Below are positions 13,022 through 44,694 of a stretch of 64,000 nt of DNA, one piece after another. The position numbers and the translations under genes are program-made. Every line of letters starts with the position of its first letter. The stretch's first letter is position 1. A model generated the notes under the pieces. That model was not told where the DNA came from. It ran no database searches and worked only from the letters and a program-made list of their open reading frames with translations. The stretch lies in contig CAZAUI010000002.1 in assembly GCA_964488505.1 (NCBI GenBank), positions 3,722 to 67,721 of the forward strand, given 5' to 3'. This DNA comes from an uncultured Thermoplasmata archaeon (GTDB taxonomy: Archaea > Thermoplasmatota > Thermoplasmata > UBA10834).

Positions 13022-13115
13022 TTCTCCAATCCTCCTCTGTCCACGCTCGGGATTACAGACGGCCCTCGCACGTATCAGGGAGTTGATATCTCTTTCACCT
13101 GCGAGGTCAGGGTCG

Positions 13116-14568: not shown

Positions 14569-14784
14569 ATGGTTCGCGTGCTGAGGAACAAGTGGTTCTG
14601 GGCGGCGGCGTTCTCGCTGCTCTTCGTCCTGTCGATAGACCTGTGGGCCTGGGACTGGTCCTTCCCGACGCTGTTCGGGCTGCCGTACATCATCACGTGG
14701 ATCGCGGTCCTCGAAGTCGGCCTGTTCGCGCTCTTCGCGCTCTTCGTCAAGTACTACTGGACCGAGGACGGGGGTGAGTCCTGA
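14569..14784 (+). CDS. Small two-TM membrane protein (DUF3311-like companion of solute:sodium symporters)
   Basis: MVRVLRNKWFWAAAFSLLFVLSIDLWAWDW...YIITWIAVLEVGLFALFALFV, with ATG at 14569. Its stop overlaps the symporter start (TGATG at 14782-14786). The 14509 start adds a non-hydrophobic leader. Confidence 0.6.
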   Translation: MVRVLRNKWFWAAAFSLLFVLSIDLWAWDWSFPTLFGLPYIITWIAVLEVGLFALFALFVKYYWTEDGGES

Positions 14785-19054: not shown

Positions 19055-19591
19055 CTACTTCTCCGAAGCTTGTTCGTCGGCGTTTCTTGCCGCCTCGGTC
19101 TCGAGCTTGACGAAGACGTACCACTGGTAGAGCCCGAGTGCAGCGAATAAAGCGAACGGCGCCAGAGTTATTGTCCAGCCAGTGAAAGCGTACAACGGCA
19201 AGAACAAGAACGCGATCACGAAGTACCAGACTACCCAAAATATGTTGCCTGCTCTCCAGACGGACCTGCGCATCGTCACGGAGGACTTGATGCCCGTGAG
19301 ACGCATCTCCTCGCTCATGACGACCTTGTCGTCGTAGACTCCTATCCCGGCGCTCTTCTGCGGAAACACTGTCGGATTGACGAGAGTGTCGAACTCGTAT
19401 GACGACAGAGGGGCCTCGTGAACAGTGTCATTGGGGGCGCCGCATTTCGGGCAGTCTCTCGCATCAGGGCTCATCCTGCTGCCACATTTGACGCAGTGCT
19501 TGTACTCGCCAGGGAACGACAGCCTCCGGCGTCCGCACTTGTCGCAGACACCGTCGTCCCCGTACTCCGTGCCACAGTCGGGACAGTCCAA
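19055..19591 (-). CDS. Double zinc-ribbon membrane protein, paralog B
   Basis: MDCPDCGTEYGDDGVCDKCGRRR...CVKCGSRMSPDARDCPKCG, a soluble region (GVYDDKVV, shared with paralog A), and two TM helices. The start is TTG (19589-19591). The C-terminal KLETEAARN matches KLEREAARN of paralog A. Confidence 0.65.
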   Translation of the reverse strand: MDCPDCGTEYGDDGVCDKCGRRRLSFPGEYKHCVKCGSRMSPDARDCPKCGAPNDTVHEAPLSSYEFDTLVNPTVFPQKSAGIGVYDDKVVMSEEMRLTGIKSSVTMRRSVWRAGNIFWVVWYFVIAFLFLPLYAFTGWTITLAPFALFAALGLYQWYVFVKLETEAARNADEQASEK

Positions 19592-19766: not shown

Positions 19767-20135
19767 ATGGTCGGGGACTCCAGTGGGCACGGAGAGGATT
19801 CTCCATCAAGGGACAACAACGGGAAGGTCTCGCGCAAGAGGGCCTCGGGCAACGGGGCGCCGAGCGGGGACCCGAGAGATGTCGTGATGAGGGCAGCGGA
19901 GCGGGGACGCCTCGACTCTGCTCAGGCCAAGGCGCTCCTGGACCTCACATCCCGCATGGGAGTGCTCGGCTTCGAGAACAGCCGGGTCGTGTCGGACCTG
20001 GTGATCGACATCGCCTACGAGGACTCCACACGCGAGAGGGCGAAGCTCGTCCGGAAGCTGAGGGAGTATCTCGAGAGCGACGGGCTCGCGAAAGACCTGG
20101 TGCCCGTCCTGTCTGGAGCGTTCAAACTTGAGTGA
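19767..20135 (+). CDS. Hypothetical small protein
   Basis: 122-aa ORF with ATG at 19767. Its stop overlaps the TTG start of the next gene by 8 nt. No recognisable motif. Confidence 0.4.
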   Translation: MVGDSSGHGEDSPSRDNNGKVSRKRASGNGAPSGDPRDVVMRAAERGRLDSAQAKALLDLTSRMGVLGFENSRVVSDLVIDIAYEDSTRERAKLVRKLREYLESDGLAKDLVPVLSGAFKLE

Positions 20136-20931
20136 AGAACCTGACCACGGGGAACCTCTGAAGGTCCACGGCAAGGATTATCTTGACGACCTCGCCAAGG
20201 TGAAGCTCGCCAAGGAAGCTTACGAGCTCGGGCTCGAGGTGGGCGAGCAGGGCCATGAGGAGTCGGCCGGATGGGTCGACGCCGAGCTGAAACACTTGAC
20301 ACAGCAGGCGGAAGAGCTCGAGATCATGGACGTGGTGAGGCGCAGGTACGAGTTCGGCAAGGAGAAGGGCCGCACCAGGAAACTGGGGAAGGAGCCCGAG
20401 GTCGTGCCGAACCAGTTAGTCAGGACCCGGAAGGCGGTCGACCGGCCCGAGGTCGCTGAGATCCCGAAGGAGGCGAGGCCGAGTGCGTTCGCCCCGCGCG
20501 TGTCCCCGGAAGAAGGCATCTGGTCCACGATATCCGTCATGAGATACGCCCGCGGGGACGAGCAGCTCCATTCGCACCTCGTGAACATGTTCGCGGGAGT
20601 CGGCGACCTGCACGACAGGATCATGAACTTGCAGCCGGGCAAGACCGCCGAGATCACTTTCGACTCTGCGCTCGACATGATCGCCGAGGTTGGCTGGCTC
20701 AGCACTTACGAGATCAAGTTCTTCGACGAGAGGAGCGCGATGGCGAGCATCGACGCCACCTCGATGCTGGCCAGGTCGTTCGGGAAATGCGCGACCCCGA
20801 TGTGCCTGCCCATAGTGAGCATGCTTGAGACGGCCGGGTTCAGGACCTTCGGCAAGCCCGTGCTGGCGGTCGAGGAGGCGTGCATGGCCCAGGGAAGGGA
20901 CCATTGCACGTTCAAGCTATTCCCGCGCTGA
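20128..20931 (+). CDS. Protein with a C-terminal V4R (4-vinyl reductase-type small-molecule-binding)-like domain
   Basis: The C-terminal ~130 aa end in GKCATPMCLPIVSMLETAGFRTFGKPVLAVEEACMAQGRDHCTFKLF. This fits the V4R pattern C....G.l.g......g....v.E..C...G...C.F. The N-terminal half is charged and coiled-coil-like. The TTG start is uncertain. Confidence 0.55.
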   Translation: MSEEPDHGEPLKVHGKDYLDDLAKVKLAKEAYELGLEVGEQGHEESAGWVDAELKHLTQQAEELEIMDVVRRRYEFGKEKGRTRKLGKEPEVVPNQLVRTRKAVDRPEVAEIPKEARPSAFAPRVSPEEGIWSTISVMRYARGDEQLHSHLVNMFAGVGDLHDRIMNLQPGKTAEITFDSALDMIAEVGWLSTYEIKFFDERSAMASIDATSMLARSFGKCATPMCLPIVSMLETAGFRTFGKPVLAVEEACMAQGRDHCTFKLFPR

Positions 20932-20940: not shown

Positions 20941-21756
20941 TCACGCGGCCGAGGCGTCCTCGTGCCAGAACGGTCTTCTGAGGACGCTCACCTTGTGCCT
21001 GGATATCAGGACCGCCGCGGTGACTACGCCCGCGACGTCGAATATCAGGTCCCCGAGCGTGTCCACTCCCGGGTGGAAGTTGCTCCAGCCGAACAGCATG
21101 TCGGTTATGAACTCCGCGAACTCGAACGTGACCGAGACCGCGAGAAGGACCGCGACGGCGATCAACAGGTTCATCCGGCCGTTCTCTCGGGAAGGACCCG
21201 ACGGGCTGGCGGTCCAGCACATCAGGGACCACAGGAAGACCGTCAGGAACATCGTGCCCAGATAATGTGCCGCGAGGTCGTAGAAGGAGAGGTGCGAGGC
21301 GGAGTAGCCGAAGTACTGCGGCAGGCCCGCGCCGACTATGACCGCGGCCGCGAGCAGGAGAATCGCGCCTCCTGTGATGACCGCCTTCCGCTTCACCTCG
21401 ACCGCGACGAGCGGGAAGGCGATGCCGAGCGAGAACGCATAGGTCCAGGAGGACCACGTCCAGCCGCCGAGGTACATCGAGAGCATGAACAAGGACAGCA
21501 GCATCACGAGCACAGAGACGGATGCGAACGGCAGCTCGGAGGACCTGAGGAGCCTGCGCCTCCGGGCGAGCCAGACCACCGGCGCGCGCTCAGAATCCCT
21601 GCCGAGCATACGCCTGTTGAAGCGCTCGATGTTCGGAGCCTTCGGCGGGTCCGCGCCCCTGCCTCCAGACGGTGCTTCGCTCAGAGTCACTGGAAGCGCA
21701 GGGAATTCCGCCGGATATAGGGTTTGCGCCTCCCAGCTGGGTCCGCCGTTCGTCAC
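20941..21756 (-). CDS. Hypothetical multi-pass membrane protein (about 6 TM)
   Basis: 271-aa ORF with a GTG start that overlaps the stop of the upstream mttB-like gene (GTGA at 21753-21756). An alternative ATG lies at 21609. TM helices include FASVSVLVMLLSLFMLSMYL, AFSLGIAFPLVAV, GGAILLLAAAVIVGAGL, LGTMFLTVFLWSLMCW, LLIAVAVLLAVSVTF and LIFDVAGVVTAAVLI. Confidence 0.6.
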   Translation of the reverse strand: MTNGGPSWEAQTLYPAEFPALPVTLSEAPSGGRGADPPKAPNIERFNRRMLGRDSERAPVVWLARRRRLLRSSELPFASVSVLVMLLSLFMLSMYLGGWTWSSWTYAFSLGIAFPLVAVEVKRKAVITGGAILLLAAAVIVGAGLPQYFGYSASHLSFYDLAAHYLGTMFLTVFLWSLMCWTASPSGPSRENGRMNLLIAVAVLLAVSVTFEFAEFITDMLFGWSNFHPGVDTLGDLIFDVAGVVTAAVLISRHKVSVLRRPFWHEDASAA

Positions 21757-23213
21757 GCGCCGAGCGTCCTCATGTGTGAGGCCACGATCGAGTCGCCCTT
21801 CCTCGCGACCTCCGGGTCGACATCAGGGACGCGGTGTTCCGCGAGGACCTTCTTCGCGATCGCCTTCGCCTCAGGGACCATCGAGGTCGAGAGGGTCGCC
21901 TGCCAGTGCTTCCACTGCTGGTCCCTGAAGATGAGCTCCTTCTTGAAGTTCCGAAGGGTGTGCATGTGCCTGAGGAAAGTGTTCCCGTGGCCGACCGCCT
22001 CGACGATCTCCGTGGCCGCCGCAGCATCGTTGATCTCGAACCGGGTCATGTACTTCCTCGTGTCCATCCAGAGGTACGAATCTATCACGACCTGCTCGAG
22101 GGCCGCGCCCTTGGCCGCGTCGCAGCTCCCCGCGCCTGCAATCATGTCCGAGCCCGACATCGCCGCGAGGGACGTCGTGAGGAGCTCGGTGAAGGACGCC
22201 TGTATCCCCGGGACCTTCGTCTCGATGCCCCAGTTGCCCGTCTGGGACGGGAGGCCGTATCTCTTGGCCATCTGGGAGGCGCCTGACGCGATCATCGGCA
22301 GGTTGTGGGAAGCGTAGTCCATCACGCCCGTGGTCATGTCTATGGGAGCGGACTCGGAACTGTACACGAACGGCGCCCCGGGGGCGGCGGTCTGGGATAT
22401 CACCAGGCTCGCGAGGTTCTCCGCGTTGATGTTCACCAGGGTCCCGCAGGTCGTCACCGGGGATGACATCCCTGAGAGCGACATGGACATGCACACGACC
22501 GGTATGCCCGCTTTCGAGTACTCGACCTGCCCCTCGATGGACGCCTTCTCGAACTCGAGGGGTGCGATCGGGCAGCTGATGACGGAGAACAGCGGCTTCC
22601 GCCTGAGCTGTTCCGGGCCGCCGGCCACGAGCGCGCCGATGTCCACGAGCTTCTTGGCCTCCTCCGGGCCCTTCGGCGTCGGTATGACATGGATGTGCTT
22701 CGTGCAGTTCCTGATGGTCGTCCAGAGAGAGTGGAGCGCGAGTGCGTCCTGGGGGGCGTCGCCGGCCGTGACCGTCGTCCAGACGATGTCGACCGCGTCC
22801 ATGGCGTCCGCCATGCGCGAGAAGTTCGCGAGGTCCTTGCCCGTCGTCGGTCTCTTCTCCCCCGACTCGAGGTCGTATGTGTAGACTGCGAGCCCGGTCG
22901 TGGTCATGAGGGGCCACGACTCCACAGGTATGACCTTCTCGTTCTTCGGGTCCCTCGCGCCCAGGGTGATCTTCTTCGGGGCCTTCGAGACCGCGTCCTT
23001 CACCATGTCCTCGCTCATCTTCGCGATGCCTTTGTCGCGGTCCACGGAGGCGCCTGCCTGCTCCAACATGGCGAGCACCTTCTGGCTCTTCACCATCACC
23101 CCGATCTTCTCGAGCCACTTCAGGCTCGTTGCGTGCACTAGCTCCTCTTCTCCCCTGTCCAAGAACCTCAATCTGGCGACTGCCACAGGTGCCACCTCCA
23201 GCCCCGATTTCAT
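21753..23213 (-). CDS. MttB-superfamily (trimethylamine methyltransferase family) corrinoid methyltransferase, non-pyrrolysine type
   Basis: 486 aa from ATG 23211-23213, with end-to-end MttB-like sequence: RLRFLDRGEEELVHATSLKWLEKIGVMV..., SGEKRPTTGKDLANFSRMADAM, LRRKPLFSVISCPIAPLEF, GIPVVCMSMSLSGMSSPVT, APGAPFVYSSESAPIDMTTG, QMAKRYGLP, GHGNTFLRHMHTL. The frame is uninterrupted, with no in-frame TAG. Confidence 0.9.
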   Translation of the reverse strand: MKSGLEVAPVAVARLRFLDRGEEELVHATSLKWLEKIGVMVKSQKVLAMLEQAGASVDRDKGIAKMSEDMVKDAVSKAPKKITLGARDPKNEKVIPVESWPLMTTTGLAVYTYDLESGEKRPTTGKDLANFSRMADAMDAVDIVWTTVTAGDAPQDALALHSLWTTIRNCTKHIHVIPTPKGPEEAKKLVDIGALVAGGPEQLRRKPLFSVISCPIAPLEFEKASIEGQVEYSKAGIPVVCMSMSLSGMSSPVTTCGTLVNINAENLASLVISQTAAPGAPFVYSSESAPIDMTTGVMDYASHNLPMIASGASQMAKRYGLPSQTGNWGIETKVPGIQASFTELLTTSLAAMSGSDMIAGAGSCDAAKGAALEQVVIDSYLWMDTRKYMTRFEINDAAAATEIVEAVGHGNTFLRHMHTLRNFKKELIFRDQQWKHWQATLSTSMVPEAKAIAKKVLAEHRVPDVDPEVARKGDSIVASHMRTLGA

Positions 23214-23615
23214 CCGGGCCGGGGGAGCATACCCGCTTCTGTTCTTTAGGTTTTCCTGTGGAGATGCATGACAGTTAAGTATCTCGCGCTCGATACACCG
23301 GGCAGAGCTGCCACCTAGCACAGGAGGTAGCCGTGGGGAGAACGGACGATGGTCACATTCTACAGGCCCGAGGCGCACCGGTCATCGCTCATGCTTCCCG
23401 GCCGGAAGAGGGAGGCATCCTTAGACCAGGTGCTCATCAGGCTGCTTCTGCACCTCGGGGCAGGGCTGCAGGTCGGAAAGCCAGCCTGCTGATTCTCATC
23501 CGCTTGCGGCCGCAGGGTACGGCCGCGCAACATGTTTAGCCGCCGTCGAGTGCGGCACGCTGTTTGGGCCTGGGCCCGCGTGGCCCGGGGTTTGAGGTTC
23601 CATAGGAGGAATGAC

Positions 23616-24269
23616 ATGGCAAGTGACAAGGAGTCGATATTGGCAGAGCTCGAGAACGGAGTCAAGAACCTGCAGCAGGAGGTCGCGGTGGAGGCCGCGA
23701 AGAAGGCGTTGGCGGCCGGCGTGAGCCCCGTCGAGGCGATAGAGGAAGGCCTCTCGAAGGGGATACGCGCGGTAGGGGAGAAGTTCGCGAAGAAGGAGAT
23801 GTTCGTCGTCGAGCTGATCTACGCCGCCGAGATCATGAGCCTCGCGATACAGGTGCTGGAGCCGGAGCTGAAGAAGGTCTCGGCCCAGAGGAACGTCGTG
23901 GGCAGGATGGTGCTGGGGACCGTGGCCGGGGACATACACGACATCGGCAAGAACCTCGTGCGCATCATGCTCGAGGCGAGCGGGTTCGAGGTGCGCGACC
24001 TCGGGAAGGACGCGTCGACCGAGAGCTTCGTCTCCGCGGCGAAGGAGATGGGCGCGGACATCCTTGGGGCGTCCTCGCTCATGACGACGACGGTCGAGGT
24101 CCAGAAGGAGGTCGTGGACGCGCTCAGGGCCGCGGGGATAGACGCGCCGCTGCTGGTCGGCGGGGCCGCCGTGTCCGAGGAGTGGGCGAAGGAGATAGGG
24201 GCGCACTACGCCTCGGACGCCAACAACGCGACCGTCATCGCGAAGCAGGTCCTGGGCAAGGGAGGCTGA
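23616..24269 (+). CDS. Methyltransferase cognate corrinoid (B12-binding) protein, MttC/MtbC/MtgC-like
   Basis: 217 aa with ATG at 23616, preceded by ggagga at 23605-23610. It has an N-terminal helical cap and a B12-binding Rossmann domain with GDIHDIGKN (DxHxxG), GASSLMTTT (SxL) and LLVGGAAV (GG). Confidence 0.9.
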   Translation: MASDKESILAELENGVKNLQQEVAVEAAKKALAAGVSPVEAIEEGLSKGIRAVGEKFAKKEMFVVELIYAAEIMSLAIQVLEPELKKVSAQRNVVGRMVLGTVAGDIHDIGKNLVRIMLEASGFEVRDLGKDASTESFVSAAKEMGADILGASSLMTTTVEVQKEVVDALRAAGIDAPLLVGGAAVSEEWAKEIGAHYASDANNATVIAKQVLGKGG

Positions 24270-24273
24270 GCGG

Positions 24274-25737
24274 ATGGACGCGAAGTTCAAACCCGGCAAG
24301 TTCGGCATGAAGCGGCTCCAGGTCATGGACCCGAAGGACGCGGACGCGGTCCACCTCAAGTCCCTGCGGCTCCTGGAGAAGATGGGCATCAAGGTCGTGA
24401 GCGAGGAGGGCCGGAGGCTCCTCAAGGAGGCCGGGGCCGAGGTCGACGAGAAGACCCATGTCTGCAAGATACCCGGCAGCCTGGTCGAGGAGTCGCTCAG
24501 GAAGTGCCAGCGGCCCGTGAGGATGGCCGCGCGCAACCCGGAGTACGACTTCGTCCTGGACGGCGAGCACTGCTACGCGTGCACGGACGGCGTCGGCCTG
24601 GCGACCATAGACCTCGACACGGGCGAGAGGAGGCCGTCCACGCTCAAGGACGTCGCGGACTCCGCCAAGATAGTCGACAGCCTGCCGATGATGCACATGT
24701 ACAATCCTCTGGTCACGCCTCTGGACGTGCCGAAGCACGCGCACACGGTGCACGAGTACCTGGTCTCGCTGGAGAACTGCGAGAAGCACTACACGACCGG
24801 CTCCACCTACCAGAAGGAGGAGGCCGTTTACGAGATCGAGATGGCGAGGGCCGTCGTGGGCGGCGAGGAGGAACTGAGGAAGAGGCCGATCATATCGAGC
24901 CTCACGTGCACGACCTCACCGATGGTGCTGGGGATGACGACCGACGCGGCGTTAGAGTTCTCGCGCGCCGGCTGCCCGCCGCTGCTGATGGCCATGCCGC
25001 TGATAGGCGCGACCGCGCCGATGACCGTGGCCGGGGCCGTCGTCCTGGGGAACGCCCAGGTGATAGCCCTCGCGACCGTGCTCCAGCTCGCGGCCCCCGG
25101 GTCGCCGCTGTGCTACTCCAGCGAGCCGATGGCGATGGACGTCCAGAGCGGCCTGTTCGAGGGGCTGTTCCCCGCGGCGAACATGGTGCGGGCGGCGCAT
25201 GTGCAGATGGCGAAGCGCTACGGGATACCGATATTCATAGGCGGCTGGGGCACCTGCTCGAAGGCGCCGGACGCGCAGGCGGGGTACGAGAAGGCCTTCT
25301 CGGCGTTCATAGCGTACCTGAGCGGCGCGGACATGACCTCGGGTCCCGGGCTGCTGGAGAACTGGACCGTGCTGTCTTTCGAGCAGCTCCTGATAGACCA
25401 CGAGATGTTCACGATGATGGCGGACATGCTGAAAGGGTTCCCCGTGGACGACGACACCGTGCCCTTCGATGTGATAGCAGGGGTGGGGCACGAGGGACAC
25501 TACATGGGCAAGAAGCACACGCTGGACCACTTCAGGGAGATGTGGCAGCCCGTGGTCACGGACGGACGCACGTACAAGGAGTGGAAGGCCGGAGGAGGCA
25601 AGAACGCGGTCGACCACGCCCGGGACAGGGCCAAGGAGATATTGAGGACGCACGTGCCGGGACCTCTCGACGAGGACCTCAGGAAGGACCTGAAGGCGTT
25701 GGTCGCCGAGGCCGAGGTCGGGATACCGCACAAGTGA
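24274..25737 (+). CDS. MttB-superfamily corrinoid methyltransferase, non-pyrrolysine type (second, diverged paralog)
   Basis: 487 aa starting 4 nt after the corrinoid gene stop: LQVMDPKDADAVHLKSLRLLEKMGIKV..., TGERRPSTLKDVADSAKIVDSL, LRKRPIISSLTCTTSPMVL, GCPPLLMAMPLIGATAPMT, APGSPLCYSSEPMAMDVQSG, QMAKRYGIP, GHEGHYMGKKHTL. There is no in-frame TAG. Confidence 0.9.
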   Translation: MDAKFKPGKFGMKRLQVMDPKDADAVHLKSLRLLEKMGIKVVSEEGRRLLKEAGAEVDEKTHVCKIPGSLVEESLRKCQRPVRMAARNPEYDFVLDGEHCYACTDGVGLATIDLDTGERRPSTLKDVADSAKIVDSLPMMHMYNPLVTPLDVPKHAHTVHEYLVSLENCEKHYTTGSTYQKEEAVYEIEMARAVVGGEEELRKRPIISSLTCTTSPMVLGMTTDAALEFSRAGCPPLLMAMPLIGATAPMTVAGAVVLGNAQVIALATVLQLAAPGSPLCYSSEPMAMDVQSGLFEGLFPAANMVRAAHVQMAKRYGIPIFIGGWGTCSKAPDAQAGYEKAFSAFIAYLSGADMTSGPGLLENWTVLSFEQLLIDHEMFTMMADMLKGFPVDDDTVPFDVIAGVGHEGHYMGKKHTLDHFREMWQPVVTDGRTYKEWKAGGGKNAVDHARDRAKEILRTHVPGPLDEDLRKDLKALVAEAEVGIPHK

Positions 25738-25766: not shown

Positions 25767-27707
25767 CTAACCTGCCTTCTGTTCCTGCGGGGTTCCCGCG
25801 AGCCTGTAGCTGCCCTTGGGCACGATAATCTCGAACCTGGCGCCCTTGTCCGGCTCGCCGGTCTCCCTGATGGCGATGTTGGTCATCGCGAGGATCGCGC
25901 GCGACAGGTAAAGGCCGAAGCCCGCCCTGCCCGTGGTCTTGTTCTTGACGCGCTCGAATATCAGGTTCTTCATCTCGGTGGGGACCCCGACGCCGTCGTC
26001 CTCGACGAATACCGCGAGGCCCTCTGGACGCACCTCGTACGAGAAGGTTATCTTCGTCGTCCTCTCGCCGTGCTTGACCGCGTTCTCCGCGAGGTTCCTG
26101 AGCACCCTGGGGAACATCGGGTCGGCGAGGACCTCCAGGCCCTGGAGCCTGTTGGACACCTTCGCGCCCTTCAGGTCGAGCCCGGGCAGGTGGGTGTCCA
26201 GGGCCATCTTGGCGTCTATCCACTGCGGGCGGGTCATGCCTATCTTCTCGTACATCCCCGTGAACTTCAGCTGCGCCTCGAGGACGTCGGTGGACTGCTT
26301 CATCTTCCCGAAGTACTTCCGCGCGTTCTCGTCCGACCAGTCCTCCTCGAGTATGGACAGCCAGCCCCTGAGCACGGCCAGCTGGTTGAGCGCGTCGTGG
26401 CGCGTGATCGAACCGAGTATCTTGAGCTTGTCGTTAGCGGCCTCCAGCTCCTTCGTGCGCTCGCGGACCTTGGCCTCCAGGTCGGTATACAGTTCGTCGA
26501 GGTCGGCGGCCATCGTGTTGAACGCCTGGGCGAGGTCGCCAAGCTCGTCCTTGTTCCTGATGCTGACGCGCTCGTCCAGGTGCCCAGCGGCCATCCTCTC
26601 GGTCGCCTGCTTCAGCATCTCGACCGGCCTCGTCACGTTCGCGGACAGCGCCAGCGCGACCGCGAGGAACACAAGGAGCAGGAGGATGGACATCGCGAGT
26701 ATCTCGGACCTGAGCACTATCACGGGCTCGAGCACCTCGGCGGCGTCATGGCTCATGAGGAAGACCCAGCTGGAGCCCTCGTACTCGATGTATCCCGGGG
26801 AGACCGCGTACGAGTACAGCCTCTCGCGCCCGGCCTCCTGCGATATGAAGTAGCCGGACTCGCCCTCGACCTGCTGCACGTAGACGTCCTCCGACATGTC
26901 ATCGTATGTCCTGAACGCGTGCGTGGAATAGACCAGGCGCATATCCGAGGTGAGTATGTCGACCTCGGTGGTCTCGTAGACACGTGTCTCGAACTGGGCC
27001 TCCATGACTATCTCGGTCGCGCCCACGAAGGCACGCATCACGCCTAGGAACCGGTCATCCGAGTCGACGACCTTGATGCTGATCGGTATGCCGTAGGCAC
27101 CCGTGGCGGGGTCGAGCTCCACCTCGCCGACGCACTTGCCATCCTCGACCGTCTCCTGCCACCACGCCTCGTCGCTCTGGAGGTAGTCGGGAGACTTGGA
27201 GGTCATAGCGACAATCGCGCCGTATTCGTTGGACACCTGGACCTCCCCGTACACATCGATGCCGTGCTCCCGGATGTAGTGCTCGTCCAGTCTGTTCGCG
27301 AGGTCCGAGGACAGGTTGTTCGAGAGGATGTCGAGCATGAACGTGGACAGCTCGTCATCGTCGAAGGACGTCCAGTCATCCTCCTGTTGGTCGATGTACA
27401 GCTGAGGGTCCGCCATCGCGTCGAACTCCGCGTTCGAGTCCGCGAGGGAGTTCCTCATGTTGTTGCCCATGGCGATTATGATCATCTCATGCAGTTTCGA
27501 GTATATGCCCCGGTCCACGGTCAACGCGAAGTGCCTTGCGAGGTCGACCGACTCGGAGCCTATGGCCTCCTCGAGCGACTGGCGGCTCGCTTCAACGCTG
27601 TAGACGGCCAGGGACAGGAACACTATGGCCAGGACCAGGAGCGATGTCACGAGCTTGGTCGAGATCCTGCTGGACCTCCTCCTGAGCCCGTTCCTCAGAG
27701 ATACCAA
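25767..27707 (-). CDS. Sensor histidine kinase (TM, Cache-like ectodomain, TM, HAMP, His-kinase)
   Basis: TM1 is LVTSLLVLAIVFLSLAVYSV. The ectodomain has Cache-like blocks (DEAWWQETVEDGK..., LDPATGAYGIPISIKVVDSDDRFLGVMRAFV). TM2 is ILAMSILLLLVFLAVALALS. HAMP is VTRPVEMLKQATERMAAGHLDERVSIRNKDELGDLAQAFNTMAADL. The H-box is ITRHDALNQL. The ATP-binding domain has NLAENAVKHG...VEDDGVGVP...GFGLYLSRAI. The start is TTG at 27705-27707 and overlaps the upstream SBP gene by 13 nt. Confidence 0.85.
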   Translation of the reverse strand: MVSLRNGLRRRSSRISTKLVTSLLVLAIVFLSLAVYSVEASRQSLEEAIGSESVDLARHFALTVDRGIYSKLHEMIIIAMGNNMRNSLADSNAEFDAMADPQLYIDQQEDDWTSFDDDELSTFMLDILSNNLSSDLANRLDEHYIREHGIDVYGEVQVSNEYGAIVAMTSKSPDYLQSDEAWWQETVEDGKCVGEVELDPATGAYGIPISIKVVDSDDRFLGVMRAFVGATEIVMEAQFETRVYETTEVDILTSDMRLVYSTHAFRTYDDMSEDVYVQQVEGESGYFISQEAGRERLYSYAVSPGYIEYEGSSWVFLMSHDAAEVLEPVIVLRSEILAMSILLLLVFLAVALALSANVTRPVEMLKQATERMAAGHLDERVSIRNKDELGDLAQAFNTMAADLDELYTDLEAKVRERTKELEAANDKLKILGSITRHDALNQLAVLRGWLSILEEDWSDENARKYFGKMKQSTDVLEAQLKFTGMYEKIGMTRPQWIDAKMALDTHLPGLDLKGAKVSNRLQGLEVLADPMFPRVLRNLAENAVKHGERTTKITFSYEVRPEGLAVFVEDDGVGVPTEMKNLIFERVKNKTTGRAGFGLYLSRAILAMTNIAIRETGEPDKGARFEIIVPKGSYRLAGTPQEQKAG

Positions 27708-28891
27708 AGTTGGCCCTCCACGACCTGGGCCCGCAGGAGGTCGTATTGGATGTCGTGGGAACCAGCAGCGACGGCGACGGGCCCGAGCACGCTGGCGTAT
27801 GAGAAGCCCCCGTGGAGCTGCGCCCGCATGTTGTCCCTGGTGAGCTCCTTGCCCTTCATCAGGCCGTAGATGAGGTTGACCGCGTCGTACCCGCTCACGG
27901 CGTAGTGGGTCATGTTGCGCCCATAGACCTGCATGAACTCCTCGGTCAGGGACTGCGCCGGGATGTAGTTCGGGTTGTAGACCGCAGGCGCGGACACATA
28001 CAGGCCTTCGGCCTCCGGCATCGCCGTTATGGTGGGGGTCGACGCGGCGCTGGACCCGAAGATATGGCCCGAGTAGCCGGACTCGCGCACAGCGACGAGA
28101 CCTGCGATGGTGGCCTTGAAGTCCGCCGCGATGTATATCGCTTCGTTGTCCGCCAGCTGGTCGACCTTGGCCGTTATGTCTTCATCCTTGCAGCAGTAGT
28201 CGACCACCTCGGCGGTCCCTCCGGCCAGCTCGAAGGCCTCGGCCAGATGAGCGGCGATCTCTTCACCCATGACGTTGTCGGACCGCATGATGCCCAGAGT
28301 GGTCACGTTGAGAGAGTCGAGCATGGACAGAGCGGGCGCCACCTCCTTCTCCGTCCCGGGGTAGTACCTGAAAGACCAGTTGCTCTCCTCGAACCCTAGC
28401 GCGTTCGCGGTCGCGATCCCCACCAGGGGGACCTCGTACTGCTCCGCGAGAGGGATCAAGGGCCTCGTGCAGCTGCACGCGGCGGATATGTAGATGAGAG
28501 GATGCTCGTCGCGCTCAAGCTCCTCGAAGAGCGCGACCGATACGTTCGGGTCGGAGCCGCTGTCCCTGACGACGATCTCTATCATCGCGCCGTTGAGGCC
28601 GCCCCACCTGTTCAGCTTGTCCGCCGCTAGGTTCATGCCGTCCACGACGTCCGCCAGGTGCACGCTCGAGCCAGTCAGGGGAGCTATGACGCCTATCTTG
28701 ACCGTCTCCTCGGCCGCGAAGAAGCCCTGGAGGTACACCGCGACGATGATCGCGGAGACGACCACGGCCAGTATGGCCACACGATATGTCCGTAGGGTGC
28801 GCGGCGGGCCGCGAACGGGGCTCGCAGCGGGCGCTGTGGGCTCTTCCATGACCAAGTCTGTCCCCTCCATCACCGACTCATCCCTGGCCAA
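27695..28891 (-). CDS. Membrane-anchored type-1 periplasmic-binding-protein fold solute-binding protein (LivK/Peripla_BP_6-like)
   Basis: It has an N-terminal anchor (YRVAILAVVVSAIIVAVYLQGFFA). This is followed by VKIGVIAPLTGSSVHLADVVDGMNLAADKLNRWGGLNGAMIEIVVRDSGSDPNVSVALFEELER...PLVGIATANAL, typical of branched-chain amino acid / amide-type SBPs. The start is either TTG 28891 or ATG 28870. Confidence 0.8.
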   Translation of the reverse strand: MARDESVMEGTDLVMEEPTAPAASPVRGPPRTLRTYRVAILAVVVSAIIVAVYLQGFFAAEETVKIGVIAPLTGSSVHLADVVDGMNLAADKLNRWGGLNGAMIEIVVRDSGSDPNVSVALFEELERDEHPLIYISAACSCTRPLIPLAEQYEVPLVGIATANALGFEESNWSFRYYPGTEKEVAPALSMLDSLNVTTLGIMRSDNVMGEEIAAHLAEAFELAGGTAEVVDYCCKDEDITAKVDQLADNEAIYIAADFKATIAGLVAVRESGYSGHIFGSSAASTPTITAMPEAEGLYVSAPAVYNPNYIPAQSLTEEFMQVYGRNMTHYAVSGYDAVNLIYGLMKGKELTRDNMRAQLHGGFSYASVLGPVAVAAGSHDIQYDLLRAQVVEGQLWYL

Positions 28892-29020: not shown

Positions 29021-29530
29021 TCAGAACTTGGCGAACTTGTCCTTCTTTGCACCGCAGATCGGACAGGCGTCCGGCGCCTCGCCCTCCATGGTGTAGCCGC
29101 AGACAGGGCACACGTGCAGCTGGCCCATGTCCACGTCCTTGCCCGCCTTGGCCGCCTCGAGGGCCCGCTCGTACTTCTTCACATGCACCTTTTCCGTTTC
29201 AAGCGCCCAGTGCATCGTCCTCACGGCAGCCTTTTCCTGCTGAAGGTTCGCGACCGCCTCGAACGCGGGGTACATCTCCTCGATCTCGTGGTTCTCGCCC
29301 TCGACCGCGTGCTCCAGGTTGGAGGCGGTGTCGAGCACGTTGCCCAGGACCTTCCAGTGGTTGACGGCGTGGACCTTCTCCGCCGCCGCGACGGCCCTGA
29401 ACAGCCTCGCCGTGTTGGGCTTCCCCTCGGTCTCGGCCTTGTCCGCCCATGCGCTGTACTTCATGTACGCCTGGCTCTCGCCTGCGTACGCCTCGCTCAG
29501 GTTGCGTTGGGTCATGTCGTGCATCTTCAT
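29021..29530 (-). CDS. rbr: Rubrerythrin
   Basis: The di-iron four-helix region has NLSEAYAGESQAYMKY, ...AAEKVHA..., EGENHEIEEMYP and LETEKVHVKKY. A C-terminal rubredoxin-like CPVCGYTMEGEAPDACPICGAKKDKF follows. Confidence 0.9.
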   Translation of the reverse strand: MKMHDMTQRNLSEAYAGESQAYMKYSAWADKAETEGKPNTARLFRAVAAAEKVHAVNHWKVLGNVLDTASNLEHAVEGENHEIEEMYPAFEAVANLQQEKAAVRTMHWALETEKVHVKKYERALEAAKAGKDVDMGQLHVCPVCGYTMEGEAPDACPICGAKKDKFAKF

Positions 29531-29657
29531 CGTCCTCCCTGTGGGAACCAGTGGCCGATTGAACGGGAAGGTGGCATAAAGAGGTTTTCCCGGCCTGGGA
29601 ACACTCAGGCAGAATGCTTACATAGTCCGCGGGGCCTCATCGGTGCCGGACGACCAC

Positions 29658-30206: not shown

Positions 30207-30330
30207 CCCGTGCCCGGACGTATATGAACCTATGCAGAGCCCGGGCGTGCTGGCCCCTCGAGAGGTTACCGCGCTGGAATGCCTGAGAGGGCCAGTAGCG
30301 TTATCAGAACCGATAACTCTGGGCCGACCG

Positions 30331-30338
30331 TATATATA
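30331..30338 (+). promoter_or_regulatory. TATA-box-like element upstream of the giant + strand gene
   Basis: tatatata at 30331-30338 lies ~55 nt upstream of the ATG at 30393. It is inside the longer 30279 ORF, which argues for the 30393 start. Confidence 0.4.
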
Positions 30339-30392
30339 GACCCGGCACGAGTTCTAACTAGATGCCGGCCAGCGGCATCGGTGTCACCTTCC

Positions 30393-33300
30393 ATGTCAAT
30401 CCCTTCGGAACATGCGGGCACGCACGAGGCCAAGACCACGCCCTCGGAGGCCCTCGCATCGTTCCTCGTCTGCGCGTTCATGCTGCTGTCCTCGCTCTCC
30501 ATCTTCTCAGGGGACGCGGTCTCCGACCCCGTGGTCGTGGACAACCCCGATGACACCCGCACGGTCGTCTGGGACTTCGACTCCCCGGACGGCTACCTGA
30601 TGACCGGCACCGAGCTGGTCGGCGGGGACGCCGTGCTGGAGTACCTGAACCTGACGGACGGCGACCACGAGTACGAGGACTACTCCGCCGGCACGCTGAC
30701 GAACGTGGACGTCGAGAGCATCCCCGGGTCGGCCATCATCGGCAGCGGGGGCCCTGTCGAAACCTATGTCTCCGAGCCGGGGCCGAACGTGACCGACTCA
30801 TACATCTCCGAGAACTGGCCGAACGACAACTACGGGGACGCCTCGGGCCTGTACCTGGACTCGGAGGCTGATAAGATGATGCGCATCGTCATGCAGTTCG
30901 ACGTATCCTCGATCCCGAGCATCGCGCACATAACGAACGCGACGCTCTGGCTGTACCAGCAGTCGGGGTCCAGGGGCGACGACATCGTGTGCAACGTGTA
31001 CAGCCTCTCCGTGCCCTTCGTCGAGTCCGAGGTGTCCTGGACCAGGAACGCGACGGCCTCCCCGTGGACGAACGCAGGCGGAGACTACGACAACTACTCT
31101 TACGGGACCCTCACGATCCCGATCCGACTCGGATGGCATGGCGCGGACCTATCCGAGCTCGTCGAGGCCTGGACCGACGGCGCTGTGACCAACAACGGGT
31201 TCATCCTGGTCCCAGAGCCCACGGTCAGCGACTGTCAGAAGGTCTTCCAGAGCTCGGACGACAACGAGCCCATCGAGCACGGACCCTGGCTCATAGTCAA
31301 CTACACGGTCCCTGCGAACGCGGGCATCATGGAGTCCAGGGTGATTGGCCCGGGCACCAACTCGACATTCACATCGGCATCCTACTACACATCGGCGCTC
31401 TCGCGCCTGGACGATGACTTCTCGGGCACGGCGGCCTTCCCCGAATGGAACTGGATGAACACACCCGCCGCTTACGACATCAACTCGACCACGCCGGGCA
31501 GGCTACACGTGACGGGTTCGCCGGAGACCGAGGCGCAGGACACGACGGTCACCTGCAACTTCATCCACCAGTCCGTCACCGGAGACTTCTCCGCGTCCAC
31601 GTACCTCGAGGACGGGTTCACGGAGATGACCATGGGTGCGGGCCTGCTGCTGTACGAGAGCAGCTCCGACTGGATGTACGTGGCAAAGGCGCAGTTCGCG
31701 ATGAACAGCAGGGTACAGGCGGTCGTCTGCCAGGGCGGCACGAGCACCTTGATGTCCGATATCGTCTGGCCGGAGTACTACAGCGCCCATCTGAAGATGG
31801 AGAGGAACTCGACAGGCGTATGGTTCTACGCGAGCACGGACGGTGAGTCGTACCAGCTGGTGTACAGCCATGAGTCCGGGACGCCGCTCGCTGACTGGCT
31901 GTCGGTCGGCCTCTTCGTATACTCCAACTCGTTGACCCAACCGGTCGTCGAGTTCGACCACTTCACAGTGGCGTTCTCCGAGATGCCTTCGGTGGAGGTC
32001 AAGGTGAGGTACGGCAACTCGACCCTGCTCTCTGACCCGTCCTGGGAGGACTGGGAGTCCGCATCGACCATCTCGAGCCCGGCGACCCTGGGCCAGACGG
32101 GCAAATACCTCCAGTACAGGGCATCCATATCATCCCCCGAGGACTGGTACACCCCGGTGTTCTCTGACTTCGACTGCTGGTACGGTATGTACCGCGACAG
32201 CGGGGTGATCACGACCCCTGAGCACGTGCCCACGGACTTCAGCTACTGGATAGGCATGACCACGAACGAGACGGACGACGGCGGGTATGTCATGTACAGG
32301 TACTCGACCGACGGCGGGGACACATGGCTCCCGGCCGGAACCGGCGGCTCGTACTCCATATCATCGATCGAACCGTCCTTCATGATAAGGGCCGAGGTCT
32401 ACACGTACGACACGCTGAGGTCCCCGCGCGTGCACTCCGTCTCCGCGACGCATGTGACGGCCGTGTCGTACCTCGAGGTCGTCGCGCCGTCCCAGGTCGT
32501 CGCCGGCGCGTCCTTCTCTGTCACCATCACGGCCAAGGACGGCTCGGACGACACGATGGTGCACTGGGACGGCGGCCTGCAGCTCATGGCGGTCGACCTC
32601 GACGGTACCACGCCCCTGCATCCGGACCTGGCAGAGACCGAGGCCTGGATCACGGATTACGGCTCGGTCACCATCCTGAACGAGCGGTACACGCAGGCCG
32701 GGGCCATCCTCATCAGGGTCGAGACGGAAGAGGGCGCGTTCGGGCTCAGCGGGGCCATCGAGGTCGTCCCGAGCACGATATCGTCCCTGCACATCGAGCC
32801 CACGGTTGACACGCTCCTGGAGGGCGCGCAGCAGGTGTTCACGGGGGTGGCTAGGGACGCGTACGGGAACACGCTCACGGACGTCAACTACTCGTGGTCC
32901 GTGGACGAGGACATAGGATCGCTCAACACCTACAACGGCAGCACGGTGATATTCACGGCAGGGGAGGCGGGGAACTCGGGATACCTGAGCGTGTCCGTCG
33001 AGGGGCTCACAGCGTCCCTGCTCATCACGATCACGCACACGGCGAACGCGCCTGTGTTCACTGAGGACCCGGCGGACCAGAGCGTCTACGAGGATGCGGG
33101 CTCGTGGACCATCGACCTGGCCCCGATCGTCGTGGACGCCGTCCACCAGGACTACGAACTCAGGTGGTACGCGACCGGAGAGAACGTCATCGACGTGAGC
33201 GGCGAGAACAGGACGGGGAACCTGGTCATGACGCTTAGCACGCTGCCCGACATCTCGGGGACGGATGTGCTCAACGTGGTCGTCGTGGACCCGGACGGCC

Positions 33301-40901: not shown

Positions 40902-40965
40902 TGTTACTGACTCCTCTCACTGACCGGGGGGATGGTCAATGTGTTCGGATGTCATTCGGCTGGCG

Positions 40966-44627: not shown

Positions 44628-44694
44628 AATACTTGACACAGTATTGACGATACGGTAGCAGTCATATCAATCACGCGCAATCAGGATAGATTAC

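What the first reader, a model, noticed from the sequence alone, without database searches (positions are those of the whole stretch)
21753..25737. Two diverged non-pyrrolysine MttB-superfamily methyltransferases flanking one corrinoid protein
Seen: 21753-23213(-) and 24274-25737(+) each encode about 487 aa of end-to-end MttB-like sequence. They share blocks with each other (SGEKRPTTGKDL / TGERRPSTLKDV; QMAKRYGLP / QMAKRYGIP; GHGNTFLRHMHTL / GHEGHYMGKKHTL) but are otherwise strongly diverged. Neither has an in-frame TAG. A B12-binding corrinoid protein (DxHxxG = GDIHDIGKN) sits between them, 4 nt upstream of the + strand copy. Established: genuine trimethylamine methyltransferase MttB carries pyrrolysine at an in-frame UAG. 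The characterised non-Pyl members (MtgB, MtpB, MtcB, MtyB) demethylate quaternary amines (glycine betaine, proline betaine, carnitine, gamma-butyrobetaine) onto a cognate corrinoid protein. Inference: this is a two-substrate quaternary-amine:corrinoid methyl-transfer module in an apparently methyl-reducing archaeon. The substrates are unknown and cannot be read from sequence. The methylcorrinoid:CoM (or THF) methyltransferase and a RamA-type activase are not in this window.
Basis: partly seen in the sequence, partly recalled or inferred. Interest (0 to 1): 0.7.

Follow-up and report, generated by a model that had tools for sequence, protein, structure and literature searches.

The report
Two non-pyrrolysine MttB genes, one corrinoid
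Two distantly related copies of a vitamin-B12-dependent MttB-type methyl-removing enzyme flank their B12-carrier protein in an uncultured Thermoplasmata archaeon that is probably not a methane producer; the locus is real and conserved, this kind of locus has already been reported from these archaea, and its substrates are unknown.

Summary
21753-23213(-) and 24274-25737(+) are full-length PF06253 (MttB) proteins (E 3e-69 and 5e-95), 30% identical to each other, with no internal stop codon. 23616-24269(+) is an MttC-like corrinoid protein with DIHDIG, and it ends 4 nt before the + copy.

- Both enzymes are non-pyrrolysine. The Pyl-equivalent codon is GGC (Gly), preceded by an invariant Trp.
- Both lack the glycine-betaine residues of MtgB. 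This includes Arg312, which is reported as conserved in every characterised quaternary-amine member. A betaine-type substrate is therefore unlikely.
- The host is not shown to be methyl-reducing. All 35 related loci come from unnamed Thermoplasmata MAGs, including UBA10834, UBA9653 and RBG_13_57_23. Together with RBG_16_62_10 (a protein-search hit), these are four of the five MAGs of order UBA10834 / Ca. Gimiplasmatales, published as lacking mcr, pyl genes and MtaA.
- Non-Pyl mttB and mttC in that order are already described.

Additions from this work:
- The minus copy probably starts at GTG 23186.
- A 47-aa ORF under purifying selection lies in the divergent spacer.
- A conserved membrane protein lies downstream of the minus copy.
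- A binding-protein plus histidine-kinase sensor pair is linked to the locus.

Verdict: new member of a known kind, modest interest.

The parts
21753..23186 (-). MttB-superfamily methyltransferase, 'minus' subfamily. 477 aa from GTG 23186. The upstream ATG at 23213 would give 486 aa.
   Evidence: PF06253 2.7e-69 over profile positions 29-492 of 500. TIGR02369 377 bits, below the cutoff of 525. A conserved SD box plus GTG, and homologues of 477 aa. The Pyl-equivalent codon is GGC at 22227-22229, preceded by TGG.
23616..24269 (+). Corrinoid (B12-binding) protein, MttC/MtgC-like, 217 aa, with the DxHxxG motif DIHDIG
   Evidence: PF02607 and PF02310. TIGR02370 179 bits, below the cutoff of 215. 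Best solved structure is M. barkeri MttC, 7xcn_M, 1e-46. It lies directly upstream of the + copy in all 30 related loci that have upstream DNA.
24274..25737 (+). MttB-superfamily methyltransferase, 'plus' subfamily, 487 aa, starting 4 nt after the corrinoid gene
   Evidence: PF06253 4.7e-95. TIGR02369 438 bits, below 525. Best PDB matches are 7xcl MttB at 2e-70 and MtgB at 8e-63. The Pyl-equivalent codon is GGC at 25249-25251. F321, W325 and W364 occupy pocket positions.
23349..23492 (+). Conserved 47-aa small ORF in the divergent spacer: MVTFYRPEAHRSSLMLPGRKREASLDQVLIRLLLHLGAGLQVGKPAC. Function unknown.
   Evidence: The C-terminal motif RLL[LM]H[LS]GAGLQ[VA]G is found in 14 loci. All 19 third codon positions vary, against 10 first and 7 second positions. 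It is called as a 47-aa hypothetical protein on 21 contigs and has no Pfam match. The AF2 model shows one helix at residues 25-42, pLDDT 66.
23275..23281 (.). Invariant TTAAGTA box in the divergent intergenic region. Candidate archaeal TATA-like promoter element (inference).
   Evidence: Identical in all 14 aligned intergenic regions, about 68 nt upstream of the small ORF.
23566..23590 (+). G+C-rich hairpin between the small ORF and the corrinoid gene
   Evidence: More distant relatives carry a hairpin of different sequence (AAGGCGG...CGCCTT) at the equivalent position. Covariation was not tested.
20941..21756 (-). Conserved multi-pass membrane protein downstream of the minus MttB gene. Start uncertain: GTG 21756 would overlap the MttB stop by 4 nt.
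   Evidence: Orthologues follow the minus copy in 14 loci at 46-73% identity, with motifs GGWTWSSWTYA and FHxGxDTxGDxxFDxAG. No significant family match; DUF2238 at E 0.018 only. The AF2 model is all-helical at pLDDT 55.
25767..27707 (-). Membrane histidine kinase (2 TM, dCache-like, HAMP, HATPase), convergent with the + copy
   Evidence: Pfam and sequence. It lies downstream of the + copy orthologue in 17 of 24 loci with enough DNA. In L028 and L029 it stays linked in the opposite orientation.
27695..28891 (-). Membrane-anchored Peripla_BP_6 solute-binding protein. Its 3' end overlaps the kinase start by 13 nt, so the two are probably co-transcribed.
   Evidence: PF13458 2.9e-40. N-terminal TM anchor. 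Co-occurs with the kinase across loci.
20128..20931 (+). V4R-domain protein (weak match), preceded by the 122-aa ORF 19767-20135. Possible ligand-binding regulator. Present only in the closest relatives.
   Evidence: PF02830 5.4e-5, below the gathering score. Found in L001, L007, L008, L009 and L032 only.

Best explanation
The locus encodes two substrate-specific, corrinoid-dependent methyltransferases of the MttB superfamily (MT1 type). They belong to two deeply separated non-pyrrolysine subfamilies and share one MttC-like corrinoid protein.

Proposed mechanism. Each enzyme binds a methylated, probably cationic, donor in its TIM-barrel pocket. It passes one methyl group to the Co(I) corrinoid of the carrier protein encoded between the two genes. 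The methyl-Co(III) carrier is then unloaded by a second methyltransferase encoded elsewhere in the genome.

Host. The host is a member of order UBA10834 / Ca. Gimiplasmatales, a non-methanogenic sister lineage of the Methanomassiliicoccales. The likely sink is therefore a C1 carrier such as tetrahydrofolate, used for assimilation or acetogenesis-like energy metabolism. It is not methyl-CoM.

Substrates. They are unknown and are unlikely to be glycine betaine or the other acidic quaternary amines handled by characterised family members. In the + subfamily, F321, W325 and W/Y364 occupy pocket positions. This suggests an aromatic box for a trimethylammonium-type cation that has no carboxylate.

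Regulation. Expression is probably controlled from the 430-bp divergent spacer, and probably by the adjacent extracytoplasmic solute-binding protein and histidine kinase pair.

Shown here: family membership, absence of Pyl, residue states, synteny and lineage. Inferred: direction of methyl flow, the sink, the substrate class and the regulation.
For: Family and fold:
- Full-length PF06253 matches.
- Best solved relatives are M. barkeri MttB and D. hafniense MtgB.
- The corrinoid protein is most similar to MttC and carries DIHDIG.

Two old subfamilies:
- Plus to minus identity is 29.8%. Each copy is 27-31% identical to MttB and to MtgB, and MttB to MtgB is 30.5%.
- Each copy has its own set of orthologues at 55-93% identity.

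Non-Pyl:
- No internal stop codon. The Pyl-equivalent codon is GGC in both copies.
- Gly is invariant at that position in all 21 orthologues aligned.
- TAG ends 9 of 44 window genes.

Not betaine-type:
- At MtgB positions Y97, R312, H348 and F356, the + clade has V/T/S, F(L), S and W/Y. The minus clade has L, Q/M/H/L, A/S and A.
- Arg312 is reported as conserved in all characterised members.

Module conservation:
- Corrinoid gene followed by the + copy in 30 of 30 loci.
- Divergent minus copy in 18 of 28 loci.
- Kinase downstream in 17 of 24 loci.
- Other Thermoplasmata carry 3-5 MttB paralogues around one corrinoid gene. That is the pattern expected for several MT1s sharing one carrier.

Host:
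- The loci include UBA10834, UBA9653 and RBG_13_57_23, and RBG_16_62_10 appears as a protein hit.
- These MAGs are published as lacking mcr, pylBCDS and MtaA.
- An H4F methyl branch is reported in Ca. Gimiplasmatales and acsA-E in one of its genera, and methylotrophy has been proposed for the order.
Against: - No enzyme of either subfamily has been assayed, so the donor could be something other than an amine.
- No MT2 or activase is linked to the locus in any of about 38 loci inspected. The published MAG surveys also found none, so the downstream half of the pathway is hypothetical.
- The pocket reading rests on alignment to MtgB and MttB, not on a structure of these proteins.
- Among the 150 nearest superfamily representatives, only 7 have Arg at the R312 column. 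Lack of Arg is therefore the norm for uncharacterised members and is not a specific clue.
- The window genome itself could not be retrieved. Its lack of mcr is inferred from relatives.
Confidence: 0.6

Rival explanations
1. First reader's reading. The locus is a two-substrate quaternary-amine:corrinoid module that feeds methyl-CoM in an H2-dependent methyl-reducing methanogen (Methanomassiliicoccales-like).
For: MttB-family proteins and an MttC-like protein are the front end of methylamine methanogenesis. An HdrD/TfrB-like CCG iron-sulfur protein lies at 11193-12404.
Against: All 35 related loci are from unnamed Thermoplasmata MAGs, including members of order UBA10834. None is from a named Methanomassiliicoccales genome. 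That order is reported to lack mcr, pyl genes, MtaA and most methanogenesis markers while retaining hdrABCD. No mcr, mtaA/mtbA or mtr gene is in the window.
Confidence: 0.04
2. Both enzymes demethylate acidic quaternary amines (glycine betaine, proline betaine, carnitine, gamma-butyrobetaine or phosphocholine), like the characterised MtgB, MtpB, MtcB, MtyB and MthB.
For: All characterised non-Pyl members use such substrates. An SSF-family Na+/solute symporter lies nearby at 14784-16232.
Against: Arg312 and His348, which bind the carboxylate, are replaced by F/L and S in the + clade and by Q/M/H/L and A/S in the minus clade. Y97 is lost in both. Identity to MtgB is only 27-28%. The SSF gene is syntenic only in the closest relatives.
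Confidence: 0.1
3. The module is biosynthetic rather than catabolic. The corrinoid protein is shared with a homocysteine or other acceptor methyltransferase, as in the split MtgBCDE methionine synthase of marine bacteria, so the MttB paralogues supply methyl groups for methionine or SAM.
For: In R. pomeroyi, MtgC serves both glycine-betaine demethylation and methionine synthesis. The locus is a stable single-copy core feature across a whole order.
Against: No Hcy-binding or pterin-binding methyltransferase gene is linked in any locus. The linkage to an extracytoplasmic solute sensor fits an inducible nutrient pathway better.
Confidence: 0.1
4. One of the two MttB paralogues works in reverse as the missing MT2 and unloads the methyl-corrinoid onto an acceptor, so the pair plus carrier forms a self-contained methyl relay.
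For: The pair is conserved around one carrier in 18 loci. No recognisable MT2 is linked to the locus here or was reported in published surveys of this order. The two copies are as different from each other as MttB is from MtgB.
Against: The corrinoid gene plus the + copy occurs without the minus copy in 10 of 28 loci. Other lineages have 3-5 paralogues per carrier, which fits multiple donors. No MttB-family member is known to act as MT2.
Confidence: 0.06

Closest known systems
mttB/mttC-like genes reported in MAGs of order UBA10834 / Ca. Gimiplasmatales (Zinke et al., bioRxiv 10.1101/2020.03.09.984617; Slate River MAGs, PMC11264602)
   Same: Orthologous locus. UBA9653 (L032), RBG_13_57_23 (L016) and UBA10834 (L024) carry the same minus copy, corrinoid gene and + copy arrangement at 58-88% protein identity, with the same flanking genes. 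The genes are published as non-Pyl, distinct from methanogen MttB, without MtaA, and of unknown function.
   Different: The passages read from those papers discuss only mttB and mttC annotations. They do not mention the paired architecture, the active-site residue states, the 47-aa ORF, the membrane protein or the sensor pair.
Methanosarcina barkeri MttB-MttC (PDB 7xcl, 7xcn)
   Same: Same fold family and full-length alignment (E 2e-70 and 1e-58). Met249 and Gly110 are conserved. The corrinoid protein matches MttC at E 1e-46.
   Different: Pyl334 is Gly. Tyr364 is Ser or Ala. Thr111 is Val or Leu. Scores are below the TIGR02369 cutoff. Identity is 29-31%. Without Pyl there is no known way to activate a neutral amine.
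Desulfitobacterium hafniense MtgB-MtgC-MtgA (PDB 2qne, 9yce)
   Same: A non-Pyl MttB member that works with a separate corrinoid protein. Full-length alignment at E 8e-63 and 7e-54.
   Different: The glycine-betaine residues Y97, R312 and H348 are all replaced, and F356 is kept as an aromatic only in the + copy. The residue at the Pyl position is Gly after Trp instead of Leu. No MtgA-type pterin-binding MT2 lies next to the genes.
Eubacterium limosum MtpB, MtcB, MtyB and MthB
   Same: Several MttB paralogues of different specificity in one organism, using corrinoid carriers.
   Different: Those enzymes keep Arg312 for acidic substrates.
Split MtgBCDE system of Ruegeria pomeroyi and other marine bacteria (PMC12478193)
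   Same: PF06253 proteins plus a stand-alone corrinoid protein that can serve more than one methyltransferase.
   Different: That system has identified MT2 partners (MtgD, MtgE) and glycine betaine as substrate. Neither applies here.

Membership tests
MttB superfamily (Pfam PF06253 / COG5598) | Full-length match to the family HMM above the gathering score | tested here: met
   233.9 and 318.9 bits against a cutoff of 25, covering profile positions 29-492 and 28-496 of 500.
Pyrrolysine-type trimethylamine methyltransferase MttB (TIGR02369 equivalog) | In-frame UAG encoding Pyl at the position of M. barkeri Pyl334 | tested here: not met
   No internal stop codon. The aligned codon is GGC (Gly) in both copies, three changes away from TAG. 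Gly is found there in all 21 orthologues aligned.
Pyrrolysine-type trimethylamine methyltransferase MttB (TIGR02369 equivalog) | Score at or above the curated equivalog cutoff (525 bits) | tested here: not met
   438.2 bits (+ copy) and 377.1 bits (minus copy).
Pyrrolysine-type trimethylamine methyltransferase MttB (TIGR02369 equivalog) | Catalytic Tyr364 and the Gly110-Thr111 cis-peptide, reported as 100% conserved in Pyl-MttBs (PMC9842639) | tested here: not met
   At the Tyr364 position the + copy has Ser356 and the minus copy has Ala359. Gly110 is kept. Thr111 is Val107 in the + copy and Leu108 in the minus copy.
Pyrrolysine-type trimethylamine methyltransferase MttB (TIGR02369 equivalog) | pylTSBCD genes in the genome | not testable with these tools
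   None is in the 64-kb window. The rest of the genome was not retrievable. pylBCDS is reported as absent from UBA10834-order MAGs. TAG ends 9 of 44 window genes.
Glycine betaine methyltransferase MtgB | Glycine-betaine-binding residues Y97, F356 (cation-pi) and R312, H348 (carboxylate) (PMC13080624) | tested here: not met
   The + copy has V107, W364, F321 and S356. The minus copy has L108, A367, Q324 and A359. The states are conserved within each clade.
Characterised acidic-quaternary-amine members (MtpB, MtcB, MtyB, MthB) | Conserved Arg at MtgB position 312, which salt-bridges the acidic group | tested here: not met
   No Arg in any of the 23 sequences of the two clades. The conservation claim is taken from PMC13080624. 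The four reference sequences themselves were not available for alignment.
Methyltransferase cognate corrinoid protein (TIGR02370; MttC, MtbC, MtgC type) | B12-binding_2 cap, Rossmann B12-binding domain and the DxHxxG His-on motif | tested here: met
   PF02607 1.9e-15 and PF02310 1.7e-24. DIHDIG at residue 106. MttC 7xcn_M at 1e-46. The TIGR02370 score of 179 is below the curated 215, and no specific equivalog (MtgC, MtbC, MtaC) is reached.
Complete three-component MT1-corrinoid-MT2 system with reductive activase | A linked methylcorrinoid:acceptor methyltransferase (URO-D/MtaA, MtrH or pterin-binding type) and a RamA-type activase | tested here: not met
   None was found among about 49 window ORFs, nor in the flanks of the related loci whose genes carry Pfam calls or were scanned. 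They may be encoded elsewhere in the genome.
Methyl-reducing methanogen (Methanomassiliicoccales) | mcrABG and methyl-CoM-forming MtaA/MtbA in the genome; phylogenetic placement in the order | tested here: inconclusive
   Neither gene set is in the window. The locus is orthologous and syntenic to loci in UBA10834-order MAGs, which are reported to have no mcr. The whole source genome could not be examined.

The most novel reading that the evidence does not exclude
In an archaeal order with no recognisable MT2, the conserved trio of minus-type MttB, corrinoid protein and plus-type MttB, with its dedicated 47-aa protein and membrane protein, is a self-contained methyl relay. One MttB-fold enzyme loads the corrinoid from a non-acidic methylated cation and the other unloads it onto an acceptor. 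This would be the first MttB-family protein acting as a methylcorrinoid:acceptor methyltransferase, and it would define a non-methanogenic archaeal methylotrophy route. A weaker and much more likely version (about 0.5) is simply that the two subfamilies have substrates outside the six known for the superfamily.
Probability: 0.06. Interest if true: 0.75.

Novelty: new member of a known kind. Interest (0 to 1): 0.3.

Why it matters
Non-pyrrolysine MttB homologues are among the most commonly annotated 'methylotrophy' genes in anoxic-sediment MAGs. They were called in 17% of MAGs in one survey, and the superfamily has about 7,500 representatives at 50% clustering. Only six substrates are known for the family. 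Annotation pipelines call these genes trimethylamine or glycine betaine methyltransferases, and carbon-cycle inferences are built on those calls.

This locus shows two subfamilies that fit neither label. They sit in a lineage next to the methanogens but outside them, in a conserved context that gives concrete handles for assays: a sensor pair, a small protein and a membrane protein. Identifying their donors and the missing acceptor methyltransferase would show whether these abundant Thermoplasmata compete with methylotrophic methanogens for methylated compounds. As a genome-scan finding it is nonetheless an expected feature of this lineage.

Tried and rejected
- Source genome retrieval. The exact minus-copy protein (P0121) is in the protein collection on a 167.5-kb NCBI contig, but it is not in the contig index. 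The small ORF led only to a 1.6-kb Logan contig. The genome could therefore not be searched for mcr, pyl, MT2 or RamA.
- Accession numbers of related assemblies gave no hit in the paper library.
- Rfam and tRNA scans of the window found nothing, so there is no pylT and no riboswitch.
- Membrane protein 20941-21756. There was no PDB, NCBIfam or significant Pfam match, and it is unrelated to the nearby YdjM-like gene. Single-sequence AF2 gave pLDDT 54.6, so no fold search was run.
- Small ORF. The AF2 model shows one helix at moderate confidence, too little for a fold search.
- Chloromethane system CdmB (PMC13222342). I checked whether it extends the MttB superfamily to non-amine donors. The term appears there only in the reference list, so this lead was dropped.
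- Neighbour-joining tree of 179 superfamily sequences. Neither copy sits next to M. barkeri MttB or MtgB, but at 30% identity the tree has no usable support. I use it only for pairwise distances.
- Neighbouring genes. The nearby SAM methyltransferase matches 'corrinoid protein-associated methyltransferase CpaM' only weakly (41 bits against a cutoff of 180). The Fe-ADH is glycerol-dehydrogenase-like. Neither is counted as part of the module.
- The sigma-70 promoter and terminator scan does not apply to an archaeon and gave nothing above background.

Full report
**1. Observation**

- 24274-25737(+) is 487 aa (ATG to TGA). 21753-23213(-) is 486 aa (ATG to TGA). Neither has an internal stop codon.
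- Both match Pfam PF06253 (MTTB) over essentially the whole profile, at 4.7e-95 and 2.7e-69.
- They are 30% identical to each other over 481 residues.
- 23616-24269(+) encodes 217 aa with B12-binding_2 and B12-binding domains and the His-on motif DIHDIG. Its best solved relative is M. barkeri MttC (7xcn_M, 1e-46).
- The corrinoid gene's TGA ends at 24269 and the + copy starts at 24274, leaving 4 nt between them.

One correction: the minus gene very probably starts at the GTG at 23186, giving 477 aa.
- A GGAGGTG box 6 nt upstream of that GTG is conserved in all aligned orthologous loci.
- Most homologues are 477 aa and begin MAVARL.

**2. Family placement**

Neither protein reaches the NCBIfam equivalog for Pyl-type MttB. 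TIGR02369 scores are 438 and 377 bits against a cutoff of 525.

I aligned both proteins to M. barkeri MttB (7xcl) and D. hafniense MtgB (9yce), together with ten orthologues of the + copy and nine of the minus copy.
- Pyl334 corresponds to an invariant Gly preceded by an invariant Trp in both clades (GGWGTCSK and GNWGIETK). MtgB has Leu at this position.
- The codon is GGC in both window genes (25249-25251 and 22227-22229). That is three changes away from TAG, and the same residue is seen in many independent assemblies, so a sequencing error hiding a TAG is excluded.
- Of the residues highlighted in the MttB structure paper (PMC9842639), Tyr364 becomes Ser or Ala and Thr111 becomes Val or Leu. 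Gly110 and Met249 are kept.
- The glycine-betaine site of MtgB is defined in PMC13080624. Y97 and F356 make cation-pi contacts, and R312 and H348 hold the carboxylate.
  - The + clade has V/T/S, W/Y, F(L) and S at these positions.
  - The minus clade has L, A, Q/M/H/L and A/S.

The same paper states that Arg312 is conserved in all members of known function, and that their substrates are all acidic quaternary amines. Neither window protein is therefore an MttB or an MtgB in the strict sense, and neither looks like the other characterised members. A betaine-type donor is unlikely.

In the + clade, aromatic residues occupy three pocket positions: F321, W325 and W/Y364. This is compatible with an aromatic box for a trimethylammonium-type cation without an acidic group. 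That reading is inference from alignment only.

A caution applies. Among the 150 nearest representatives of the superfamily, only 7 have Arg at that column, and the dipeptide at the Pyl site is very variable. Departure from the MtgB pattern is thus the rule among uncharacterised members. The superfamily has 7,544 representatives at E<1e-3 in the 50%-clustered library.

Pairwise identities over trimmed columns are as follows:

| Pair | Identity |
|---|---|
| plus / minus | 29.8% |
| plus / MttB | 31.0% |
| plus / MtgB | 27.9% |
| minus / MttB | 28.5% |
| minus / MtgB | 26.7% |
| MttB / MtgB | 30.5% |

The two copies are therefore separate old subfamilies, not a recent duplication.

**3. Organism**

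The window has 62-64% G+C. Every named hit to either protein is a Thermoplasmata, Thermoplasmatota, Methanobacteriota or Euryarchaeota MAG.

A scan of one genome per GTDB species gave 35 loci. All come from unnamed Thermoplasmata MAGs and none from a named Methanomassiliicoccales genome. The loci include:
- isolate UBA10834 (L024);
- UBA9653 (L032), at 85-88% identity and with the same gene order as the window from the SSF gene onwards;
- RBG_13_57_23 (L016).

RBG_16_62_10 appears among the hits to the minus copy (P0212). These are four of the five MAGs that Zinke et al. assign to order UBA10834, now called Ca. Gimiplasmatales.

That study reports for these MAGs:
- no mcr or mcr-like ORFs;
- no pyrrolysine genes;
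- no MtaA-type methyltransferase;
- non-Pyl mttB plus mttC/mtbC genes that are phylogenetically distinct from methanogen MttB and of unclear role.

A later study proposes methylotrophic acetogenesis for this order through an H4F methyl branch, with an undescribed corrinoid:THF methyltransferase.

Window-level evidence agrees with this.
- TAG terminates 9 of 44 predicted genes.
- There is no tRNA or Rfam hit.
- There is no mcr, mtr, mtaA, pyl or ramA among the scanned ORFs.
- The HdrD/TfrB-like CCG protein at 11193-12404 is not diagnostic, because these non-methanogenic lineages retain hdr genes.

I could not retrieve the source genome itself, so this point rests on orthology and synteny with published MAGs.

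**4. Anatomy and conservation of the locus**

I tabulated 38 related loci.
- The corrinoid gene directly precedes the + copy orthologue in all 30 loci that have upstream DNA.
- An orthologue of the minus copy lies divergently upstream in 18 of 28 loci.
- In more distant Thermoplasmata, the corrinoid gene and + copy occur alone (L011, L013, L014, L023, L028, L029).
- Others carry 3-5 MttB paralogues around the corrinoid gene, next to an Opp/Dpp-type ABC importer (L025, L026, L030).

This pattern is what is expected for several donor-specific MT1 enzymes sharing one carrier.

A membrane-anchored Peripla_BP_6 binding protein (27695-28891) and a dCache-HAMP histidine kinase (25767-27707) overlap by 13 nt.
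- The kinase follows the + copy in 17 of 24 loci.
- The pair stays attached in the opposite orientation in L028 and L029.
- This argues for a functional link, probably substrate sensing (inference).

No MT2 or RamA-type gene appears in any flank that was inspected.

**5.

(a) A small ORF in the spacer.
- The divergent spacer keeps a length of 423-450 bp in 14 of the 16 distinct loci measured, the window included.
- It contains a 47-aa ORF at 23349-23492(+).
- Its C-terminal motif RLL[LM]H[LS]GAGLQ[VA]G is conserved in 14 loci. All 19 third codon positions vary, against 10 first and 7 second positions. There are 670 synonymous and 421 non-synonymous codon differences in pairwise comparisons.
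- It is therefore a translated gene under purifying selection.
- It is annotated as a hypothetical protein on 21 contigs, has no family match, and models as a basic disordered N-terminus plus one helix.
- It was found only where the minus copy is present or where the upstream DNA is too short to tell.

(b) An invariant TTAAGTA box at 23275-23281, and a hairpin between the small ORF and the corrinoid gene. The hairpin is kept in position but not in sequence.

(c) A conserved multi-pass membrane protein (20941-21756) immediately downstream of the minus copy in 14 loci. It has no family assignment.

The functions of all three are unknown.

**6. Mechanism and rivals**

Best explanation (confidence 0.6): two MT1-type methyltransferases of distinct specificity load one corrinoid carrier. 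The methyl group then goes to a C1 carrier through an unlinked second methyltransferase in a non-methanogenic archaeon. The donors are probably cationic but not betaines.

Rivals:

| Rival reading | Confidence |
|---|---|
| Methyl-CoM formation in a methanogen | 0.04 |
| Betaine-type substrates | 0.1 |
| Biosynthetic, split-methionine-synthase-like role, by analogy with MtgBCDE | 0.1 |
| One paralogue acting as the missing MT2 | 0.06 |

**7. Novelty**

The family, its non-Pyl nature, its presence with mttC in this archaeal order, and the absence of MT2 and mcr are all in the literature. What is new here is descriptive:
- the paired architecture;
- the residue states, which exclude both MttB-type and MtgB-type chemistry;
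- the conserved accessory genes.

I rate the finding as a new member of a known kind, with interest 0.3.

Noticed in passing
window 23349-23492 (+): A 47-aa ORF in the divergent spacer, conserved in 14 loci with clear third-position wobble. It is called as a hypothetical protein on 21 contigs, has no family match, and is found only where the minus MttB copy is present or where the upstream DNA is too short to tell. Function unknown.
   Followed up: yes
window 23505-23590 (+); equivalent positions in L015-L033: Hairpins between the small ORF and the corrinoid gene (GCGGCCG...CGGCCGC and GGGCC...GGCCC). Distant relatives have AAGGCGG...CGCCTT at the same place, so position is conserved but sequence is not. 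This could be a terminator, attenuator or processing site. Covariation was not tested.
   Followed up: partly
window 20941-21756 (-): A conserved multi-pass membrane protein directly downstream of the minus MttB copy in 14 loci, possibly translationally coupled through a GTGA overlap. No Pfam, NCBIfam or PDB assignment (DUF2238 at E 0.018). The AF2 model has low confidence.
   Followed up: partly
window 43500-54700: A low-G+C stretch (0.46-0.57 against about 0.62 elsewhere) with strong GC-skew changes. It carries GT2 and GT4 glycosyltransferases and ORFs with no family match, and is flanked by GDP-mannose dehydratase/epimerase genes. It looks like a variable, possibly horizontally acquired, cell-surface glycosylation island.
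   Followed up: no
window 30279-35318 (+) and 35400-40916 (-): Two convergent giant proteins of 1679 and about 1838 aa with CBM96, disaggregatase-repeat, GH43_C2/DUF1349 and Ig-like domains. They are probably surface proteins. The first is syntenic across the order.
   Followed up: no
L002 10001-10897 (GCA_041320395.1, JBGLNF010000001.1): A close relative keeps only a 298-aa remnant of the + copy (93% identical) next to the kinase. It has no corrinoid gene and no minus copy there, so the locus has apparently been lost or rearranged in that genome.
   Followed up: partly
L025, L026, L030: In more distant Thermoplasmata, 3-5 MttB paralogues are arrayed around one or two corrinoid genes. They lie next to an Opp/Dpp-type ABC importer (SBP_bac_5 plus two permeases) and an amidohydrolase, which hints at a peptide-like or opine-like methylated substrate there.
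   Followed up: partly
window 11193-12404 (-), 12629-13252 (-), 29021-29617 (-): An HdrD/TfrB-like CCG iron-sulfur protein, a desulfoferrodoxin (superoxide reductase) and a rubrerythrin. This is an anaerobe's oxidative-stress and electron-transfer set. The HdrD-like gene may have prompted the 'methyl-reducing' guess, but it is not diagnostic.
   Followed up: partly
window 51520-54528 (-), 6142-7011 (-), 19055-19591 (-): Several proteins built from repeated zinc-ribbon / double-zinc-ribbon modules, including one of 1002 aa. Function unknown.
   Followed up: no
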